In this document: positions 785 through 48,951 of the stretch, one piece after another
Numbering within the stretch: position 1 is the stretch's first letter
Layout of the letters: every line of letters starts with the position of its first letter
DNA from: Candidatus Kerfeldbacteria bacterium
GTDB lineage: Bacteria > Patescibacteriota > Patescibacteriia > UBA10025 > JAHIVO01
Direction: 5' to 3'
NCBI GenBank assembly: GCA_016214565.1
Contig: JACROE010000002.1
Location: 119,654 to 183,653, forward strand
DNA: 64,000 bases
The notes under the pieces: model-generated
The model's database searches: none
The model's input: the letters and a program-made list of their open reading frames with translations, nothing else
What the model was told of the DNA's origin: nothing
Made by a program: the position numbers and the translations under genes

Positions 785-1885
785 CTACTCGCCCTGGGCT
801 AATTCTTCCAGCAGCTGCTTTTGTTTGCGCGACAATTTTGTCGGCGTCACGACCTGTACGGTCACCAACTGGTCACCACGACCCCGAGAACGCAGGTGCG
901 GCACGCCTTTGTCGCCTAAACGAAATACTTTACCTGACTGCGTGCCAGCAGGAATCTTCAAAATAACCTCGCCGTCTAAAGTTTCTACAGGAACCTTATC
1001 TCCCAGCGCCGCCTGACTGAAACTGATTTCGAGCGTGGAAAGAATATCGTCGTCCTTGCGCTCAAATACCGGATCCGGCTCTACCCGCATGGTGATATAG
1101 AGATCTCCGGGATGCGCTCCCCGACCACCCGCTTCGCCTTTGCCAGACACGCGGATTGATTCACCTTCCTGGATACCTGCTGGAATTTTCACCTTAATCT
1201 TTTCTGAAGCGCGCACCCGTCCATCGCCGCCGCACTGTTTGCACTGCTTACTCGCCTTCTTGCCCTCGCCCTGGCACGAGGAACAAACCGCCGCGGTGCG
1301 AAAAGCTCCCAGTATCGTTTGCTGTACTTGTTCGACTTGGCCACGGCCGCCACAGGTAGAGCAGGTTTCAATCTTTGCACCAGGCTCCGCGCCATTTCCC
1401 TGACAATGATCACACACGACCTGCTTGTATAATTCGACAACTTCTTCAGTGCCAAAAACCGCCTCACGGAATGTAAGTGTCAATGTCGTCTGAATATCTT
1501 GGCCGGCTGATCGGCGCGATCCCCGACCACCCCGACGGCCAAAACCGAAAATGTCCCCAAAGATATCTCCAAAATCGCCAAAGTCATATTCCACCCGCTG
1601 GCCGCCCTGAGCGCCACCTGCGGCTCGTGCAAAGTCTTCCCAGGAAAACCCTTGCCCGCGCGCACCGGCCGCCTGCTCGTACTGGCTGCCAAACTGGTCA
1701 TAGCGCTGCCGACGCTCTGGATCACTCAATACTTGATAGGCGCCATTAATCTCCTTAAACTTAGCTTCGTCACCGCCCTGCTTGTCCGGGTGATGCTGAT
1801 GCGCTAGTTTACGATAGGCTTTCTTTATCTCGTCTTGGGTGGCGCCTTTGGCAACGCCTAATATTTCGTATAAATCTTTTGACAT
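785..1885 (-). CDS. dnaJ: molecular chaperone DnaJ
   Basis: J-domain (DLYEILGV...HPDK), G/F-rich linker, four CxxCxGxG zinc-finger repeats, C-terminal substrate-binding domain. Confidence 0.95.
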   Translation of the reverse strand: MSKDLYEILGVAKGATQDEIKKAYRKLAHQHHPDKQGGDEAKFKEINGAYQVLSDPERRQRYDQFGSQYEQAAGARGQGFSWEDFARAAGGAQGGQRVEYDFGDFGDIFGDIFGFGRRGGRGSRRSAGQDIQTTLTLTFREAVFGTEEVVELYKQVVCDHCQGNGAEPGAKIETCSTCGGRGQVEQVQQTILGAFRTAAVCSSCQGEGKKASKQCKQCGGDGRVRASEKIKVKIPAGIQEGESIRVSGKGEAGGRGAHPGDLYITMRVEPDPVFERKDDDILSTLEISFSQAALGDKVPVETLDGEVILKIPAGTQSGKVFRLGDKGVPHLRSRGRGDQLVTVQVVTPTKLSRKQKQLLEELAQGE

Positions 1886-1944
1886 AGCGTGAATACTCCC
1901 TCTGAACCATGCAGTCTACGGGAAAAAGGACGTATGGTCAAGGC

Positions 1945-3003
1945 TTACAATGATACTTTTTCTACCTCGGTTTGCACCTTCGTCACCTTGAAAAAATGAA
2001 GCCACTTCAGGACATGGTAGAGTATAGCCGCAAATATTTTTATGAGCTCGCGGCAAAAGAGGGCAAACACGTTGAGCAAAAAGAACATGCTCAAGGCAAG
2101 CAAAGCGGGAATAAATTTCTCATACGGACCCACATACCGTGTAATATTTTTCGCCACCACTTTTCGCACTACTGAATCCATCCGTTCATCACCGGTCGCT
2201 TCGATCTCGAATGATTTGAGAAATTCATCGCGCGCTTTGGCAATCACTTCCTGTTCAGCGATGGCAATGCCGGCCTTGATCTGCCGATCGAGCTCCTCAA
2301 TATCTGGCGTCAATTCCTCGATCTCAGACAGTCCCTGCTTCTCGAGATCGCCGATGCGAATAATATTTGCAATAAAGGCGTCTAAACTCATGTCCGGATT
2401 ATACCCCTCTCCGTAGAATTGATTGAGACCCAGATTGACTGCCTCCATACTCGCATCGACCAGGCCATTGATCACATCTGATTCGGACTGCGCTCGATCA
2501 GTGATAAAGCCGAAGTACATAACTGACAGAGCCAAAAGGATTATAGAAACCGTGCTGCGCAAACCCGTGTCCAACGTCTGCCGCGGTTTAAACATGGTGC
2601 GGGTTTTCATGTCATTTGAAATACTGCGACGCCAGATGTACCACCCCGCCGCCATGATCGCCGCCGCCAGCAGACTCCAGATACTCACGCCGAAGAACAG
2701 CAAACCAGTCGCAGCGGCAACTACGCATACGAGCAAAAAATACCAACGCATGGTGACGAAAATTTCTGTGAGGGCAACTACAGAAAACATGAGGCAGAAA
2801 GCTAAAAGAGTCGAGGCGATCGTTACTAAATTACTCAGATGAAATGAAAATTCAACCGAGGTCAAGGCATTGTGCCACGCCAACCAAAACAATGCCGTGG
2901 CCGCAATCACCAAGCCAAACAGCACCATCAATTTCTGCATGGGCTGGGCTGGTTTAAAATCTTTAAGCTTAGGCAATTCTGCTTTCGGTTGTTCGACGCG
3001 CAT
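1945..3003 (-). CDS. hypothetical polytopic membrane protein (352 aa)
   Basis: Several predicted TM helices at both ends and a coiled-coil/acidic middle; no recognised family. Confidence 0.55.
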   Translation of the reverse strand: MRVEQPKAELPKLKDFKPAQPMQKLMVLFGLVIAATALFWLAWHNALTSVEFSFHLSNLVTIASTLLAFCLMFSVVALTEIFVTMRWYFLLVCVVAAATGLLFFGVSIWSLLAAAIMAAGWYIWRRSISNDMKTRTMFKPRQTLDTGLRSTVSIILLALSVMYFGFITDRAQSESDVINGLVDASMEAVNLGLNQFYGEGYNPDMSLDAFIANIIRIGDLEKQGLSEIEELTPDIEELDRQIKAGIAIAEQEVIAKARDEFLKSFEIEATGDERMDSVVRKVVAKNITRYVGPYEKFIPALLALSMFFLLNVFALFCRELIKIFAAILYHVLKWLHFFKVTKVQTEVEKVSL

Positions 3004-3337: not shown

Positions 3338-3512
3338 ATTATTACTTCTTACTATTTACTTATTACTAGTTACTTATCACTACCTACTCAATACTACTAA
3401 CTAATCACTCTGTATATCATATCAGCTCTCGCCGAATTGACAAATCATCCGCTCCCAGGCTAGGGTACAATTAGAACAGAAACCGCTCACCATTAACAAT
3501 CGGAGGCGATAG

Positions 3513-3743
3513 ATGCGATCATTTCGCCGTTCCATCCAGCGCCTGGTTTTGCGCAATAAGCAGTGCATCCTGCACTGTGCCGGTGGCCGTATCGTGCGCA
3601 TTCCAGCTGGCAGCGTGGCAAAAGTCCGCGTCTGCTCCCAGGAGCAAAAGCCCTTTGTCAGATTTGACCAGGGAAAACGCGTGCCCTACATCCATGCGTC
3701 AGAACGCCACGTCCTCTCCTGTTGGGCAACTCATCACCAATGA
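3513..3743 (+). CDS. possible small basic protein (76 aa); coding status uncertain
   Basis: GGAGG 6 nt upstream of ATG; overlaps an alternative 90-aa frame; no homology recognised. Confidence 0.2.
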   Translation: MRSFRRSIQRLVLRNKQCILHCAGGRIVRIPAGSVAKVRVCSQEQKPFVRFDQGKRVPYIHASERHVLSCWATHHQ

Positions 3744-3845
3744 CCACGAGTTGTTGGTTCCTCCACCCCCAGGCGGTTACACTACCCTTTCCGCCTGGGT
3801 TTTCTTTACCCCTGAGGCTCGCTCATGGCCGTGCCTCAACCGGGC

Positions 3846-17567: not shown

Positions 17568-18431
17568 CTAAAGAAAACGGAATGTCTCAATAATTTTATC
17601 CATTCCCTGAAGCAATGCTGACTCTTCCTCAGTAAGGTTATTTCTGTTTATCAACCTTCGCAATTCAGAATCGGTTACACTATCCCAAGCTTGGGTGTCA
17701 TTACTCGTGCAGTCCCATCCCCCATCGGTAAATAATATTGAACTGATAATAAGTCCTTTATAAATCGAATGATCAATGTTCAGCCAACTCTCTCTGATAA
17801 ACATGGGTGAACACTCAGGAGCATCAAAACGTAGTCTATCAAAGGTATTCTGACCTGCCACAGTCTTATTGACGCAGTACGAATAATCCTCAATAACACC
17901 GGGAGTCGAACATTCTTGAGCTAAATTCGCCCCACCATTATATGAGGTAAGTGCAACAAAATCTCGATAATCACTTGAGGATAATCGTATGTTTGGTTTT
18001 GTTGAGTTCTCAAATGTAATATTAACCCCCTGCCCCTCATAATAACTCCGTTCGTCATTTCTATAATCATTATTTGTCACCTTAACGACACCCCAGTTAT
18101 TCGGATATTGAAAACTAATCCCATACTCCTCATTCTCATACGTCAGCCAATCCGACGTATCTACTGTGGTAATATCGGCATTCGTATTGATATTCGAATT
18201 TGCGTTGAGATTTAGATTGACGTTCACATTCTCTATGAATGTCTTGCCATTGATGGTGCACTGCCCAGGATAAATAGCTAAAACCTGACCGACAGCTTTC
18301 GCGCATTCCTCAAAACTATCAACGGAATCGTATTGATGCTGATTAAAATACCATGCAGTGCTAACCATCAAAACCGCCACCAGGGAAATGGCGATAACGA
18401 CGACGATGGCGATAAAACCGCGATTGAGCAT
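17568..18431 (-). CDS. secreted or anchored protein with conserved RGF N-terminus (287 aa)
   Basis: N-terminus MLNRGFIAIVVVIAISLVAVLMV; N-rich linker; Cys-containing C-terminal domain. Confidence 0.55.
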   Translation of the reverse strand: MLNRGFIAIVVVIAISLVAVLMVSTAWYFNQHQYDSVDSFEECAKAVGQVLAIYPGQCTINGKTFIENVNVNLNLNANSNINTNADITTVDTSDWLTYENEEYGISFQYPNNWGVVKVTNNDYRNDERSYYEGQGVNITFENSTKPNIRLSSSDYRDFVALTSYNGGANLAQECSTPGVIEDYSYCVNKTVAGQNTFDRLRFDAPECSPMFIRESWLNIDHSIYKGLIISSILFTDGGWDCTSNDTQAWDSVTDSELRRLINRNNLTEEESALLQGMDKIIETFRFL

Positions 18432-46366: not shown

Positions 46367-46729
46367 TTAGCTGGTCACGGTGTCTGCCGTATTGACGACA
46401 AAAGTCACAATTGCCCAAGCTAAGAGTACAACGATTAAACCGACAACTGCTGCGCTGATAATCTTTTTGGCGGTGCCTACTTTATCCTCATTGCCACCAG
46501 CCGTAATCCAAACGAAGCCTCCGTACAGAATCATGATAACCGCGATCAAACCGAGGAAGCCGAGTACCCATTGAACGATGTTAACAACGGTTGATTCGAG
46601 GTCAGCAGTTCCGAGACCGAAGGTGTTGCCATAGTTACCAATATTCACCTGAGCTGAGGCTACCACTGGCATTACCAAAACGACGGCCAGAGTAAGAGCG
46701 GTAATAATTTTTTTAGTCATTCCATTCAC
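46367..46729 (-). CDS. TrbC/VirB2-like (T4SS-type) pilin candidate
   Basis: Signal peptide, then two TM helices with ...LGFLGLIAVIMILYGGFVWITAGGNEDKVGTAKKII..., the pattern I recall for CPR T4SS pilins; SD AAGGGGGTG. Confidence 0.5.
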   Translation of the reverse strand: MNGMTKKIITALTLAVVLVMPVVASAQVNIGNYGNTFGLGTADLESTVVNIVQWVLGFLGLIAVIMILYGGFVWITAGGNEDKVGTAKKIISAAVVGLIVVLLAWAIVTFVVNTADTVTS

Positions 46730-47187
46730 CCCCTTTCATGTGTTCCATAACGTTTGCGCTATGAATAAATTACTTACTGAAGTTTTCCTTTTGTATAAAA
46801 ATAAAAAAATGCCCCAAAAATGAGAAGTAGTATAATAATGAAGATTTGACCGCCAGTTGAATCCATATTAAATCATCTCATTGTATACCCGGGGACTGAA
46901 CACGTCAATGTGTAACTATATAGTCAGAAGTCTCTACTAAAATCCCGGTTTCTATTGGCATTTCTCGTGAATTATAGCAAAATAGACGCAAAATGGCAAG
47001 TTGCTTGCTTTTTCCCTTACATTTGATAGTATTTGTTGCATACCTCCTATATTTATTGGGGAGAGTTCATAATATTCTTACACCGAGCCGCGTAGAATTT
47101 TTACGCGGCGAGGAAAAGGAAAAACGCGTGCGAAGGCGGAATGACCGATGATAATCGGACACGAAGCCGATAGCACCGTTTGGACGC

Positions 47188-47263
47188 GCGCGCATAGCTC
47201 AGTTGGTAGAGCAGTGGCCTTTTAAGCCAACGGTCGGGGGTTCGAATCCCTCTGCGCGCACCA
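47188..47263 (+). tRNA. tRNA-Lys (anticodon UUU)
   Basis: 76-nt cloverleaf: GCGCGCA acceptor, TAGCTCAGTTGGTAGAGC D-arm, CTTTTAA anticodon loop, GGGTTCGAATCCC T-arm, encoded CCA. Confidence 0.9.
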
Positions 47264-47422
47264 AACGAAGTGCAGGAGCAAGCAGAACGACACACCAATG
47301 TGTGTCGTGTAGGGATGAGAAAGCCGCAGCGATGCGCGAGTTCCCCGAGCCTGTCGAGGGGAGGCGAGCGCCGCGAGGCGGGGTCGACCGCAATTGCCGT
47401 CAGGCAATTGACGGGTGACCAA

Positions 47423-47441
47423 AATCCCTCTGCGCGCACCA
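47423..47441 (+). repeat. exact 19-nt duplicate of the tRNA-Lys 3' end (AATCCCTCTGCGCGCACCA)
   Basis: Identical to 47245-47263; about 30 nt of imperfect similarity including a T-arm-like hairpin. Confidence 0.8.
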
Positions 47442-47452
47442 CCTCAAGAGTG

Positions 47453-47477
47453 CCGCGGTAATACCGCGGTATTTTTG
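47453..47477 (+). terminator. rho-independent terminator after the tRNA-Lys/duplicate segment
   Basis: CCGCGG-taata-CCGCGG followed by TATTTTTGTTT. Confidence 0.6.
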
Positions 47478-47583
47478 TTTATTGCTAAACAGGTGGAAAA
47501 CATGTGTATGGCCCACGGCTTGATTTAGGGTAGCTTTCAGGATACACTGATAACCACCGAATAAACGCTTTATTCCCCTATCT

Positions 47584-48951
47584 ATGGCTAAAAAAGCCGC
47601 TGGTATTGAAAAATTACCACCACAAAACCTTGAGGCAGAACAGTCTGTTTTAGGGGCTTTATTGATTGATAAAGACGCAATTATCCGAGTAGCAGATATA
47701 GTTACCCCGGACGATTTTTACAAAGATGCCCATCGCGCTGTCTTTGAAGCTATGCTCACCCTCTACGAAAAGCGTGAACCAATTGATGTATTGTCACTTT
47801 CAAATCAACTCGAAAGCGAACACCGTCTCGAGGAAATTGGTGGCAGAAGTTACCTAGCATCACTGGCAAATGCCGTACCAACCGCCTCCCACGTCACTAA
47901 CTACGCACACATCGTTCAGAAGAAAGCAACCCTACGCCGGTTATTGACGGTCGCCTCTCGCATTACCGAGTACGGCTATGATGAATCAGAAAATATTGAA
48001 GAGCTGTTGGACAAGGCCGAACAGGCAATTTTCGGCGTTTCCCAAAAATACCTCAAGCAAAACTTTATTCCAATAAAATCAATTTTAACTGAAGCATTCG
48101 ATCGTATTGATGAATTGCATCGCGAAAGCGGCAAGCTCCGCGGTATTCCAACGGGCTATGCTGACCTCGACAACATATTGGCGGGCCTACAGAAATCAGA
48201 TCTGATTATTCTTGCAGCCCGGCCGTCAGTTGGTAAAACAACCCTGGCGCTGGACATTGTTCGACAAGTAGCGGTGAAATCAAAAGTTCCCGTTGGAATA
48301 TTCTCACTGGAAATGTCAAAAGAACAACTCATTGATCGTTTTCTTTGTGCCGAGGCGGGCGTTGATCTCTGGCGCATGCGGAGCGGAAAATTATCCTCTG
48401 ACGAGGACTTTACCAATATTGGCAATGCCATGGGTATCTTGTCCGAAGCGCCTATCTATATTGATGATTCGGCCTCAGCGAATATTATGGAAATCCGAAC
48501 TAAAGCACGTCGGCTACAATCGGAACACAATCTTGGCCTGATTGTCATTGATTATCTCCAACTTATGCAAGGTACGTCCGGTACTGATAACCGAGTACAG
48601 GAAATCAGTGAGATCACGCGTTCACTCAAAGCTATTGCCCGTGAACTGAACGTCCCCTTAATCGCCCTATCCCAGCTCTCGCGCGCTGTGGAGTCCCGCA
48701 CTCCCCCAATCCCGAAACTGGCTGACCTCCGTGAATCCGGATCAATCGAACAGGACGCCGACGTGGTACTTTTTATTTATCGCGAAGCGATCTACAAAAA
48801 AGATATTGACCCAGCGCGCAAACATGTGGCGGAAATCCACGTTGCGAAACATCGCAATGGTCCGACCGGTGAAATTCAACTATACTTCGACGAGAATCGA
48901 GTCAGCTTCCGCAATCTTGATCGCAAAACTAGCGATATCCCCGCCTTTTAA
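47584..48951 (+). CDS. dnaB: replicative DNA helicase DnaB
   Basis: N-terminal DnaB domain, Walker A ARPSVGKTTLAL, and RecA-like motifs; TTGATT-17-TACACT promoter upstream. Confidence 0.95.
   Translation: MAKKAAGIEKLPPQNLEAEQSVLGALLIDKDAIIRVADIVTPDDFYKDAHRAVFEAMLTLYEKREPIDVLSLSNQLESEHRLEEIGGRSYLASLANAVPTASHVTNYAHIVQKKATLRRLLTVASRITEYGYDESENIEELLDKAEQAIFGVSQKYLKQNFIPIKSILTEAFDRIDELHRESGKLRGIPTGYADLDNILAGLQKSDLIILAARPSVGKTTLALDIVRQVAVKSKVPVGIFSLEMSKEQLIDRFLCAEAGVDLWRMRSGKLSSDEDFTNIGNAMGILSEAPIYIDDSASANIMEIRTKARRLQSEHNLGLIVIDYLQLMQGTSGTDNRVQEISEITRSLKAIARELNVPLIALSQLSRAVESRTPPIPKLADLRESGSIEQDADVVLFIYREAIYKKDIDPARKHVAEIHVAKHRNGPTGEIQLYFDENRVSFRNLDRKTSDIPAF

What the first reader, a model, noticed from the sequence alone, without database searches (positions are those of the whole stretch)
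47188..47477. tRNA-Lys followed by a 19-nt exact duplicate of its 3' end flanking a GC-rich, hairpin-dense 160-bp segment
AATCCCTCTGCGCGCACCA occurs at 47245-47263 as the tRNA 3' end and again at 47423-47441. The second copy sits in a stretch with about 30 nt of tRNA-like similarity, and a strong terminator follows immediately.

The intervening 158 bp is about 62% GC and full of stem-loops: GACACAC/GTGTGTC, CCGTCA/TGACGG and GCGG/CCGC. The six-frame ORFs over it are overlapping junk.

Direct repeats of a tRNA 3' end are the classic attL/attR signature of integrase-mediated insertion, but the enclosed element is far too small to encode anything. Two readings are possible. One is the scar of a decayed or recombined integrative element. 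The other is a tRNA-linked structured small RNA carrying its own tRNA-like, CCA-ended 3' terminus.
Basis: seen in the sequence. Interest (0 to 1): 0.65.

Follow-up and report, generated by a model that had tools for sequence, protein, structure and literature searches.

The report
Displaced tRNA-Lys end beside hairpin-rich insert
A lysine tRNA gene in an ultra-small (Patescibacteria) bacterium is followed by a 159-bp GC-rich stretch and a perfect second copy of the tRNA's last 19 bases; this is most likely the non-coding leftover of DNA that once inserted into the tRNA gene, not a new RNA gene.

Summary
tRNA-Lys(UUU) lies at 47188-47263. Its last 19 nt recur exactly at 47423-47441 (0 expected by chance). 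A 159-bp, 62% GC insert separates the copies, and a strong terminator follows at 47445-47477.

The genome is a Patescibacteria (CPR) genome. The sister lineage (DnaB 86% identical) carries the same module: tRNA, a partly homologous insert, copy 2 and the same terminator. There it is inverted relative to dnaB. A closer relative (90%) lacks it.

Partial copies of the resident tRNA-Lys lie within 1.5 kb in 8 of 10 lineages of this clade, against 0 of 25 other tRNAs. Downstream repeats start in the T loop in six lineages. Some relatives carry pseudo-tRNA-Lys copies with GC hairpins in every loop, plus small GIY-YIG genes or a 1.5-kb cargo insertion at the same spot.

Each insert folds very stably (z = -7.5), but only one helix is shared between lineages. 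No Rfam family, protein family, integrase or second copy was found.

Best reading (about 0.5): the footprint of insertion at the tRNA T loop, that is, a regenerated tRNA plus its displaced old 3' end and terminator, now a decayed non-coding remnant. A functional tRNA-linked RNA is not excluded (about 0.15).

The parts
47188..47263 (+). Intact tRNA-Lys(UUU) gene with encoded CCA (the 'regenerated' or functional copy)
   Evidence: ARAGORN. Rfam RF00005, 73.8 bits, full length.
47245..47263 (+). Direct repeat copy 1. It runs from the last three bases of the T loop through the T-stem 3' strand, the acceptor 3' strand and the discriminator to CCA.
   Evidence: Exact 19-mer. Position within the tRNA read from the Rfam alignment.
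47264..47422 (+). 159-bp GC-rich (62%) non-coding insert. It contains a hairpin at 47288-47307 (CGACACAC-CAAT-GTGTGTCG), a long irregular helix at about 47324-47381 and a hairpin domain at about 47382-47420.
   Evidence: Composition. MFE and centroid folds, z = -7.5 and -7.9. No Pfam hit for the overlapping ORFs. No Rfam hit.
47311..47316 (+). AGGGAT, complementary to ATCCCT (47424-47429) of copy 2. This is the 5' strand of helix P1, a pseudo-T-stem that encloses about 105 nt of the insert. It resembles the reverse complement of the T arm.
   Evidence: Folds. The equivalent helix is present in L089, L173 and L176. Match to rc(T arm) is 11/17 here and 13/17 in L089.
47423..47441 (+). Direct repeat copy 2 (the 'displaced' tRNA 3' fragment), ending in ACCA
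   Evidence: Exact 19-mer. Copy 2 plus terminator is 93% identical over 58 nt to the sister lineage L089, whereas the insert is only partly alignable. An independent assembly, L001, covers this part.
47445..47477 (+). Intrinsic terminator. It is probably the tRNA's original terminator and now ends the tRNA + insert transcript.
   Evidence: 15-pair stem, 7 G-C pairs, T run. Conserved in L089/L090/L091.
47083..47187 (+). GC-rich structured leader upstream of the tRNA (hairpin 47087-47109). It belongs to the same unusually structured block. It is lineage-specific.
   Evidence: Composition. Fold. One of only 5 perfect GC-rich hairpins of 8 bp or more in 64 kb. Present in L284, absent in L089.
47584..48951 (+). 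dnaB, the syntenic anchor gene used to find related loci. It is not part of the element.
   Evidence: Pfam DnaB/DnaB_C in precomputed hits.

Best explanation
The 19-nt repeat is the footprint of DNA insertion or recombination in the T loop of the tRNA-Lys(UUU) gene. The upstream copy completes the working tRNA. The downstream copy, with its terminator, is the tRNA's displaced old 3' end. The 159 bp between them is a decayed, non-coding, hairpin-rich remnant (or miniature form) of what was inserted.

**Shown**
- The repeat is exact and begins in the T loop.
- The same module, with a partly homologous insert, exists in the sister lineage.
- This tRNA-Lys locus is a clade-wide hotspot where partial copies of the resident tRNA accumulate and cargo comes and goes.
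- The insert has no coding capacity, no known RNA family and no conserved internal structure.

**Inferred**
- The agent was a site-specific recombinase of the tRNA-targeting (tyrosine integrase) kind, acting in trans or since lost.
- Nested events and deletions produced the present remnant.
- In the window the remnant is simply co-transcribed as a structured 3' trailer of the tRNA, up to the old terminator.
- It has no function of its own.
For: 1. **Repeat geometry.** The exact 19-mer runs from the T loop to CCA, and copy 2 is followed directly by a strong terminator. This is the 'regenerated target plus displaced fragment' geometry described for tRNA-gene islands (Islander, PMC4383910). A T-loop attB is documented for phage Ms6 (PMC1762012).
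2. **Sister lineage.** L089/L091 (DnaB 86%) have tRNA, a roughly 180-nt insert, copy 2 (16 nt) and the same terminator. Copy 2 plus terminator is 93% identical to the window over 58 nt, while the insert is only patchily alignable. That fits a host-derived flank versus dispensable inserted DNA.
3. **Repeat boundary.** The left boundary of the downstream repeat lies in the T loop in six lineages with different tRNA sequences: window, L089, L093, L095, L173 and L176.
4. **Hotspot.** Partial copies of 12 nt or more lie within 1.5 kb in 8 of 10 Patescibacteria tRNA-Lys/dnaB lineages, against 0 of 25 other tRNAs.
5. **Polymorphism.** L090 has the same DnaB as L089 but carries an extra 1.5-kb cargo with a PsbP-like ORF exactly at the tRNA 3' end. 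L083-88 (DnaB 90%) lack the insert, copy 2 and the terminator. The module's orientation relative to dnaB flips between lineages.
6. **Inverted arm.** The insert's left part carries an inverted T-arm-like sequence, as recombinase core sites do. Genuine att-type sites found in viral contigs show GTGCAGG-tcag-TCCTGCAC.
7. **No sign of its own function.** No Rfam family, no Pfam family, and the consensus structure with L089 is only -19 kcal/mol, with helix P1 the main shared feature.
Against: - No integrase or other recombinase was found in any of about 10 related loci (precomputed Pfam), nor among 12 mid-sized window ORFs.
- All inserts seen are 1.5 kb or smaller. No complete element was found.
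- No precise empty site (tRNA directly followed by the terminator) was seen. L083 looks like an imprecise deletion.
- Copy 2 matches the resident tRNA perfectly in lineages whose acceptor stems differ at many positions. L089 carries the same C72>T change in both copies. A one-off ancient integration does not predict this. It needs recurrent events, concerted evolution or selection.
- 5' fragments upstream of the tRNA (L176, L002, L281) and pseudo-tRNAs with hairpins in the D, anticodon and T regions (L281, L174) are not expected from T-loop crossover alone.
- The inverted arm lies about 105 nt from copy 2, not 4-7 nt as in a true core site.
- The extreme fold stability (z = -7.5) is unexplained by a purely neutral remnant.
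Confidence: 0.5

Rival explanations
1. Break-repair or duplication debris rather than integrase att sites. The locus carries decaying segmental duplicates of the tRNA-Lys gene. They were generated by homing-endonuclease (GIY-YIG) cleavage and repair, unequal recombination or fold-back/template-switch synthesis. tRNA stems then seeded progressively longer perfect hairpins. The window's copy 2 would be the last recognisable piece of such a pseudo-tRNA.
For: - L281 has two 106-nt tandem pseudo-tRNA units, then the intact tRNA, then a GIY-YIG ORF. A near-complete tRNA-Lys copy follows, with GC hairpins inserted in the D loop, the anticodon loop and the T-stem/acceptor junction.
- L174/L175 have a GIY-YIG (pseudo)gene and the real tRNA flanked by two pseudo-tRNA halves that share a 30-nt repeat.
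- L176 and L002 have 5' fragments upstream.
- L095 has a 68-nt repeat around an AT-rich 85 bp, which looks like a simple duplication.
- The helix P1 5' strand looks like a reverse-complement copy of the T arm.
- No integrase was found anywhere.
Against: - No GIY-YIG gene or remnant is found at the window, L089, L173, L176 or L093 loci.
- These 89-aa GIY-YIG proteins have no demonstrated homing activity.
- In the window itself, neither the insert nor the leader aligns to the tRNA better than shuffled sequence, so 'pseudo-tRNA' is shown only for relatives.
- The regular T-loop boundary and the terminator after copy 2 fit site-specific insertion better.
Confidence: 0.27
2. A functional tRNA-linked structured RNA. 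The insert plus copy 2 would be an RNA of about 130-180 nt. Its base helix (P1) is a pseudo-T-stem, and its 3' tail mimics the acceptor 3' strand and CCA of tRNA-Lys. It might act as a decoy, regulator or processing element for tRNA-Lys or for enzymes that recognise it.
For: - Each insert folds very stably: window z = -7.5/-7.9, L089 -5.6, L174 -6.1, L281 -5.6, L173 -3.7.
- P1 is kept in four lineages with compensated positions. One of these (U-A to C-G in L173) lies outside the ancestral T stem.
- Copy 2 always equals the resident tRNA's 3' end, although acceptor stems differ between lineages.
- A terminator follows copy 2 in the window, L089, L093 and L176.
- A -10-like box precedes the insert in L173 and L176 (read).
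- Purine-rich motifs (GAGCAAGCG, AACGAAG, AGCGA) recur in the inserts.
Against: - Internal helices are not conserved even between the window and its sister lineage.
- Architecture differs: a three-way junction in the window, nested helices in L173 and L176.
- The recurring motifs sit at non-equivalent positions.
- The L093 insert is not structured (z = +0.5).
- No Rfam hit even at E = 10.
- The element is absent from a 90%-DnaB relative and from L099, L282 and L283.
- Whether it is co-transcribed with the tRNA is not conserved.
- Part of the mimicking tail is buried in P1.
Confidence: 0.15
3. Chance repeat or assembly artefact.
For: Short-read (Logan) contigs of this organism break inside the tRNA and inside the insert, so the region is hard to assemble.
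Against: - A 19-nt exact repeat is not expected by chance.
- L001 and L284 independently reproduce both flanks base for base.
- The same architecture is present in two independent assemblies of the sister lineage, the NCBI MAG L089 and the Logan contig L091.
Confidence: 0.03

Closest known systems
Genomic islands and prophages integrated in tRNA genes by tyrosine integrases ('regenerated target + displaced fragment'; Islander, PMC4383910; T-loop attB of phage Ms6, PMC1762012)
   Same: - An intact tRNA is followed by inserted DNA and a direct repeat of the tRNA's 3' part.
- The repeat starts in the T loop and runs to the 3' end.
- The original terminator sits after the displaced fragment.
- The site is a polymorphic hotspot.
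   Different: - The insert is only 159 bp and non-coding.
- No integrase is present here or in about 10 related loci.
- No precise empty site was seen.
- The inverted core-like arm lies about 105 nt from the repeat.
- Relatives also have 5' fragments.
CIMEs (cis-mobilizable elements): att-flanked remnants of ICEs/IMEs that lack recombination genes (reviewed in PMC5704250)
   Same: Two att-like direct repeats flank DNA that has no integrase or mobilisation genes. It plausibly derives from a larger element by deletion.
   Different: - Known CIMEs are kilobases long and sit next to, or are mobilised by, a cognate ICE/IME.
- No cognate element or integrase was identified here.
- The host is a CPR bacterium.
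Group I introns in Patescibacteria tRNA genes (PMC13011429)
   Same: Same phylum. Both are extra structured sequence associated with tRNA genes that standard annotation handles poorly.
   Different: - Those introns interrupt the anticodon loop (35/36 and others) of tRNA-Asn/Asp and self-splice.
- Here the tRNA is intact and uninterrupted.
- The extra sequence is downstream, too short for a group I core, and matches no Rfam intron model.
- A term search of that paper found no mention of tRNA-Lys or the T loop.
Free-standing GIY-YIG homing endonucleases in phage tRNA gene clusters (SegB of T4-like phages; PMC13096335, PMC2988022)
   Same: Small GIY-YIG genes sit directly beside tRNA genes, with local duplication or rearrangement, in relatives L281 and L174.
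   Different: - There is no GIY-YIG gene at the window locus.
- The setting is a bacterial chromosome, not a phage.
- Activity is untested.

Membership tests
tRNA-gene-integrated genomic island (tyrosine integrase type) | Intact (regenerated) tRNA gene plus a displaced 3' fragment as a direct repeat bounding the insert | tested here: met
   19/19 exact repeat running from the T loop to CCA. The same holds in L089, L093, L173 and L176.
tRNA-gene-integrated genomic island (tyrosine integrase type) | Integrase gene inside the island, next to one att site | tested here: not met
   - The insert is 159 bp and its ORFs have no Pfam hit.
- No integrase appears in the neighbours of related loci.
- None was found among 12 mid-sized window ORFs. 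The rest of the genome was not searched.
tRNA-gene-integrated genomic island (tyrosine integrase type) | Precise empty site (single tRNA 3' end joined to the original downstream flank) in related genomes | tested here: not met
   The nearest relative without the insert (L083-88) also lacks copy 2 and the terminator, and keeps about 10 nt resembling the start of the insert. This is an imprecise absence.
tRNA-gene-integrated genomic island (tyrosine integrase type) | Core-type inverted repeats closely flanking the crossover region | tested here: inconclusive
   An inverted T-arm-like arm exists (AGGGAT, 47311-47316) but lies about 105 nt from copy 2. Att-type sites seen in viral contigs have a 4-nt spacer.
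CIME (att-flanked non-autonomous remnant) | att repeats flanking DNA without recombination or transfer genes | tested here: met
CIME (att-flanked non-autonomous remnant) | A cognate ICE/IME/phage whose integrase recognises the same att site | not testable with these tools
   - Only 64 kb of the genome is available.
- Viral-contig scans for the att sequence gave only tRNA genes and chance hits.
- There is no phage or plasmid BLAST match.
Known structured RNA families (Rfam 15, including tmRNA, group I intron, small ribozymes and Y-RNA-like RNAs) | Match to a curated covariance model | tested here: not met
   Only the tRNA itself scores. Nothing covers the insert except a non-significant hit at E = 9.9. 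ARAGORN finds no tmRNA.
Conserved structured ncRNA (generic) | Secondary structure conserved with covariation across lineages | tested here: not met
   RNAalifold on window vs L089 gives -19 kcal/mol, mainly helix P1. The folds of L173 and L176 have a different architecture. Only 2-4 alignable sequences were available, so the power is low.
MITE / IS-derived miniature transposon | Multiple dispersed copies with terminal inverted repeats and a fixed-length target duplication | tested here: not met
   - There is no second copy of the insert motifs in 64 kb, even with 3 mismatches allowed.
- Repeat length varies from 16 to 68 nt between lineages.
- The inverted arms are tRNA-derived and lineage-specific.
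Group I intron in a Patescibacteria tRNA | Intron interrupts the tRNA, which is undetectable without splicing, and matches a group I core | tested here: not met
   The tRNA is uninterrupted at 73.8 bits. There is no Intron_gpI hit. The insertion sites reported in PMC13011429 are in the anticodon loop.

The most novel reading that the evidence does not exclude
This Patescibacteria clade maintains, beside its tRNA-Lys(UUU) gene, a family of tRNA-Lys-derived, hairpin-expanded RNAs. Their pseudo-T-stem and 3' tail are kept identical to the resident tRNA. That would make them a tRNA-mimicking decoy, regulator or recombination substrate that co-evolves with the tRNA. Alternatively, the insert is a new kind of miniature mobile element that targets the tRNA-Lys T loop and copies the host's own 3' end at each insertion.
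Probability: 0.13. Interest if true: 0.75.

Novelty: new variant of a known kind. Interest (0 to 1): 0.36.

Why it matters
On the best reading this is an ordinary kind of object, a displaced tRNA fragment marking an old insertion. The setting is less ordinary.

- **Insertion hotspot.** It shows that ultra-small CPR genomes keep an active insertion and rearrangement hotspot at one tRNA-Lys gene. This gives a landmark for finding their poorly known mobile elements.
- **Annotation.** Annotation pipelines should expect tRNA-like fragments and hairpin-invaded pseudo-tRNAs at this locus.
- **If the minority reading holds.** A tRNA-mimicking RNA that tracks its tRNA would be a new class of tRNA-linked regulator or decoy. 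That matters because tRNA-Lys(UUU) is a frequent target of anticodon nucleases in phage-defence systems (general knowledge, not tested here).

Tried and rejected
- **Rfam:** scanned at gathering threshold over the whole window and at E <= 10 over 46500-48000. Only the tRNAs scored.
- **Integrative element with a matching attP:** viral-contig scans for the window-type and L176-type tRNA-Lys 3' ends returned real tRNA genes, typical proteobacterial att sites and chance hits. These included an antisense 20-nt match inside a tmRNA gene (L182) and a tRNA-Lys segment with an expanded T loop inside an ORF of a GC-rich viral contig (L286). None was CPR-related or carried the insert. A scan for an insert motif gave 88 hits that I did not inspect; with only 15 specified bases I assumed they were chance matches.
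- **BLAST:** the insert has no match in phage or plasmid collections.
- **Replication origin:** rejected. GC skew does not switch at the locus.
- **Dispersed repeat (MITE/REP):** rejected for this window.
- **Guide-RNA readings** (TnpB omega-RNA or a homing crRNA with a 19-nt guide equal to the tRNA end): considered from memory and set aside.
  - No nuclease gene is adjacent.
  - The scaffold/guide junction is not conserved.
  - Part of the 'guide' is buried in helix P1.
  - It would target the cell's own tRNA gene.
- **Primer-binding site for tRNA-Lys on the minus strand:** set aside. No reverse transcriptase gene appeared among the locus genes or the window ORFs tested.
- **Mapping the window insert onto a tRNA skeleton** (as is possible for L174 and L281): local alignment of the tRNA to the insert or the leader is no better than shuffles, so the claim was dropped for the window.
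- **Searches for related loci by DnaB** in genome and metagenome collections returned mostly distant taxa. The informative loci came from exact-protein look-ups (vs 13-15, 31-33, 52-55, 76).

Full report
**1. The observation**

ARAGORN and Rfam agree on a tRNA-Lys(UUU) gene at 47188-47263 on the plus strand, with CCA encoded. The 19-mer AATCCCTCTGCGCGCACCA occurs exactly twice in the 64-kb window, at 47245-47263 and 47423-47441. None of 100 shuffles gave a match, even with two mismatches allowed.

In the Rfam alignment the repeat begins with the last three bases of the T loop. It runs through the T-stem 3' strand, the acceptor 3' strand and the discriminator to CCA. The intervening 159 bp is 62.3% GC, against 47.9% for the window.

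A 15-pair terminator with a T run lies at 47445-47477, three bases after copy 2. The trailer 47264-47477 folds at -106.5 kcal/mol (z = -7.5). The whole block 47080-47480 has z = -7.9. Perfect GC-rich hairpins of 8 bp or more are rare elsewhere, with five in 64 kb. ORFs over the insert hit no Pfam family.

Only the '30 nt of similarity' is generous. It amounts to the 19 exact bases plus 3 of the preceding 11.

**2. Organism and context**

The downstream gene is dnaB, followed by ybaB and recR. Its closest homologues are from Patescibacteria (CPR) metagenome genomes. Upstream lie a T4SS-pilin-like gene and a P-type ATPase, by synteny with the annotated relatives. GC skew does not switch here, so this is not an origin of replication.

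**3. The sister lineage**

L089 and L091 are two independent assemblies with DnaB 86% identical to the window. They carry the same module: an identical tRNA body, a roughly 180-nt insert, a 16-nt copy of the tRNA 3' end followed by CCA, and the same terminator.

- Copy 2 plus terminator is 93% identical to the window over 58 nt. The insert aligns only in patches.
- The whole module is inverted relative to dnaB.
- In L089 the tRNA gene itself lacks CCA, has a terminator-like hairpin directly after it, and carries C72>T. Copy 2 carries the same C72>T change.
- L090 has an identical DnaB but carries an extra 1.5 kb exactly at the tRNA 3' end. This encodes a PsbP-like 392-aa protein, is bounded by GTATA, and ends in degenerate T-arm-like pieces.
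- L083-L088 (DnaB 90%) have the tRNA in the window's orientation but lack the insert, copy 2 and the terminator. The first roughly 10 nt after CCA resemble the start of the window's insert, so this is an imprecise absence, not an empty att site.

**4. The wider clade**

Look-ups of further DnaB homologues (64-82% identity) showed that partial copies of the resident tRNA-Lys are the rule.

| Locus | Arrangement |
|---|---|
| L093 | tRNA without CCA, 89 nt, then AGGTTCG-[38 nt]-AAATCCTGCACGGCTCACCA plus terminator |
| L095 | 68-nt repeat starting at TTCGAATCC, around an AT-rich 85 bp |
| L173 | tRNA plus terminator, an AT-rich spacer, a GC-rich core, then an 18-nt copy |
| L176 | 19-nt 5' fragment plus a 66-nt GC-rich block upstream; the same block (94% identical) plus a 34-nt 3' copy with terminator downstream |
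| L002 | upstream 5' half with a hairpin replacing part of the anticodon stem |
| L174/L175 | two pseudo-tRNA halves whose anticodon and T arms are replaced by GC hairpins; they flank a GIY-YIG (pseudo)gene and the real tRNA |
| L281 | two 106-nt tandem pseudo-tRNA units, the real tRNA, a GIY-YIG ORF, then a near-complete tRNA-Lys copy with hairpins in the D loop, anticodon loop and T-stem/acceptor junction |

A uniform count of same-strand exact matches of 12 nt or more within 1.5 kb gives 8 of 10 distinct lineages. It gives 0 of 25 other tRNAs in the fetched loci, including the window's own tRNA-Glu. In every lineage the copy matches that lineage's own tRNA, although acceptor stems differ at many positions between lineages.

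**5. Anatomy of the insert**

In the window, L089, L173 and L176 the copy's T-stem 3' strand pairs with a short segment 60-105 nt upstream. I call this helix P1.

- Window: AGGGAT/ATCCCT
- L089: GAGGGAT/ATCCCTC
- L176: CAGGGATC/GATCCCTG
- L173: TGGGAC/GTCCCA

The upstream segment resembles the reverse complement of the resident T arm at 11/17, 13/17, 11/17 and 9/17 positions. The pairing extends 2-4 nt into what was the T loop.

Inside P1 the helices differ between lineages. RNAalifold on the window and L089 retains P1 and a few short pairs, at -19 kcal/mol, whereas each sequence alone folds far more stably. Purine-rich motifs (GAGCAAGCG, AACGAAG, AGCGA) recur but at non-equivalent positions. 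This was read from the sequences.

In the window itself, neither the insert nor the GC-rich leader aligns to the tRNA better than shuffled sequence. Demonstrably tRNA-derived material there is limited to copy 2 and, arguably, the six-base P1 arm.

**6. What it is not**

- No Rfam family matches and ARAGORN finds no tmRNA.
- There is no phage or plasmid match.
- There is no second copy of the insert motifs in the window.
- There is no GIY-YIG gene at this locus.
- No integrase was found in related loci or among the window ORFs tested.
- Group I introns are common in Patescibacteria tRNA genes. They interrupt the anticodon loop of other tRNAs (PMC13011429). Here the tRNA is uninterrupted.

**7. 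Interpretation**

The geometry matches the standard footprint of insertion into a tRNA gene, in which the element restores the gene and displaces its old 3' part (Islander, PMC4383910). The matching features are:

- a repeat from the T loop to the 3' end;
- the old terminator after the distal copy;
- a dispensable, fast-evolving middle;
- strain-level cargo polymorphism at the same point;
- orientation flips between lineages.

T-loop crossover is documented, for example for phage Ms6 (PMC1762012). Att-flanked remnants without recombination genes are known as CIMEs (PMC5704250). I therefore take the segment to be a decayed or miniature non-coding remnant. In the window it is co-transcribed as a structured tRNA trailer up to the old terminator.

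That transcription, the nature of the recombinase and the nested history are inferences.

The weak points are these:

- no integrase was found anywhere;
- no precise empty site was seen;
- the copy perfectly tracks each lineage's tRNA;
- relatives have 5' fragments and hairpin-invaded pseudo-tRNAs;
- the inverted arm is distant from copy 2;
- the fold stability is unexplained.

These points keep two rivals alive. One is duplication and repair debris, possibly driven by GIY-YIG endonucleases; there is precedent for such genes beside tRNA genes in T4-like phages (PMC13096335, PMC2988022). The other is a functional tRNA-mimicking RNA.

**8. Verdict**

The thing is a known kind of object in an unusual, clade-wide and hairpin-rich variant. 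Interest is moderate to low as it stands. It would be high only if the minority reading (a tRNA-tracking RNA or a new T-loop-targeting mini-element) were shown by RNA data, long reads or a large covariation analysis.

Noticed in passing
window 47492-47506; also L083 ~52-68, L089 ~2920-2935, L173 ~477-492, L281 ~2904-2920, L283 ~2901-2917: The motif GGTGGA(A/C)AA(A/C)ATGTG lies about 80-90 nt upstream of dnaB. It is conserved across lineages whose other intergenic DNA is unalignable. It is possibly a regulatory or DnaA-box-like site.
   Followed up: no
L281 2107-2860; L174/L175 ~1180-1720 (minus strand): Pseudo-tRNA-Lys copies have long perfect GC hairpins (for example CCCCGCCC-GTAA-GGGGCGGGG) inserted in, or replacing, the D, anticodon and T arms. 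The connecting tRNA segments stay intact. Small GIY-YIG genes are wedged between these copies and the real tRNA.
   Followed up: partly
L090 ~1290-2790 (minus strand) vs L089: Two genomes with identical DnaB differ by a 1.5-kb insertion exactly at the tRNA-Lys 3' end. It encodes a PsbP_2-like 392-aa protein and is bounded by GTATA. Its distal end carries two degenerate T-arm-like pieces. The window also encodes a PsbP_2-like protein, at 17568-18431.
   Followed up: partly
window 47083-47187: The roughly 100-nt leader upstream of the tRNA is GC-rich, purine-rich and structured (hairpin 47087-47109). It is present in L284 but absent from the sister lineage L089. Its origin is unknown, and it is no more similar to the tRNA than shuffled sequence.
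   Followed up: partly
L182 3577-3596 (IMG/VR contig, inside tmRNA gene 3483-3788 on the minus strand): A 20-nt exact match to the window's tRNA-Lys 3' end lies antisense within a tmRNA gene. It is probably chance, given the database size.
   Followed up: partly
L286 ~350-408 (IMG/VR contig, GC-rich, not CPR): A tRNA-Lys 3' segment (variable loop to CCA) has an 18-nt expansion of its T loop containing CGCAACGAAAGCTTGCG. It is embedded in a 122-aa ORF. This parallels the T-loop expansions seen in the CPR loci.
   Followed up: no
L284 end, L083 start, L001 start: Short-read (Logan) contigs of this organism and its relatives end inside the tRNA-Lys gene (at ...AAGCCAACGG | TCGGGGG...) and inside the insert's palindromic hairpin. 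This may be because another tRNA-Lys isoacceptor shares the 3' half.
   Followed up: no
tRNA-Lys/dnaB loci: window, L083, L173, L176, L093, L281 (+) vs L089, L174, L095, L002 (-): The orientation of the tRNA-Lys module relative to dnaB flips repeatedly between related lineages. This suggests recurrent local inversion.
   Followed up: no
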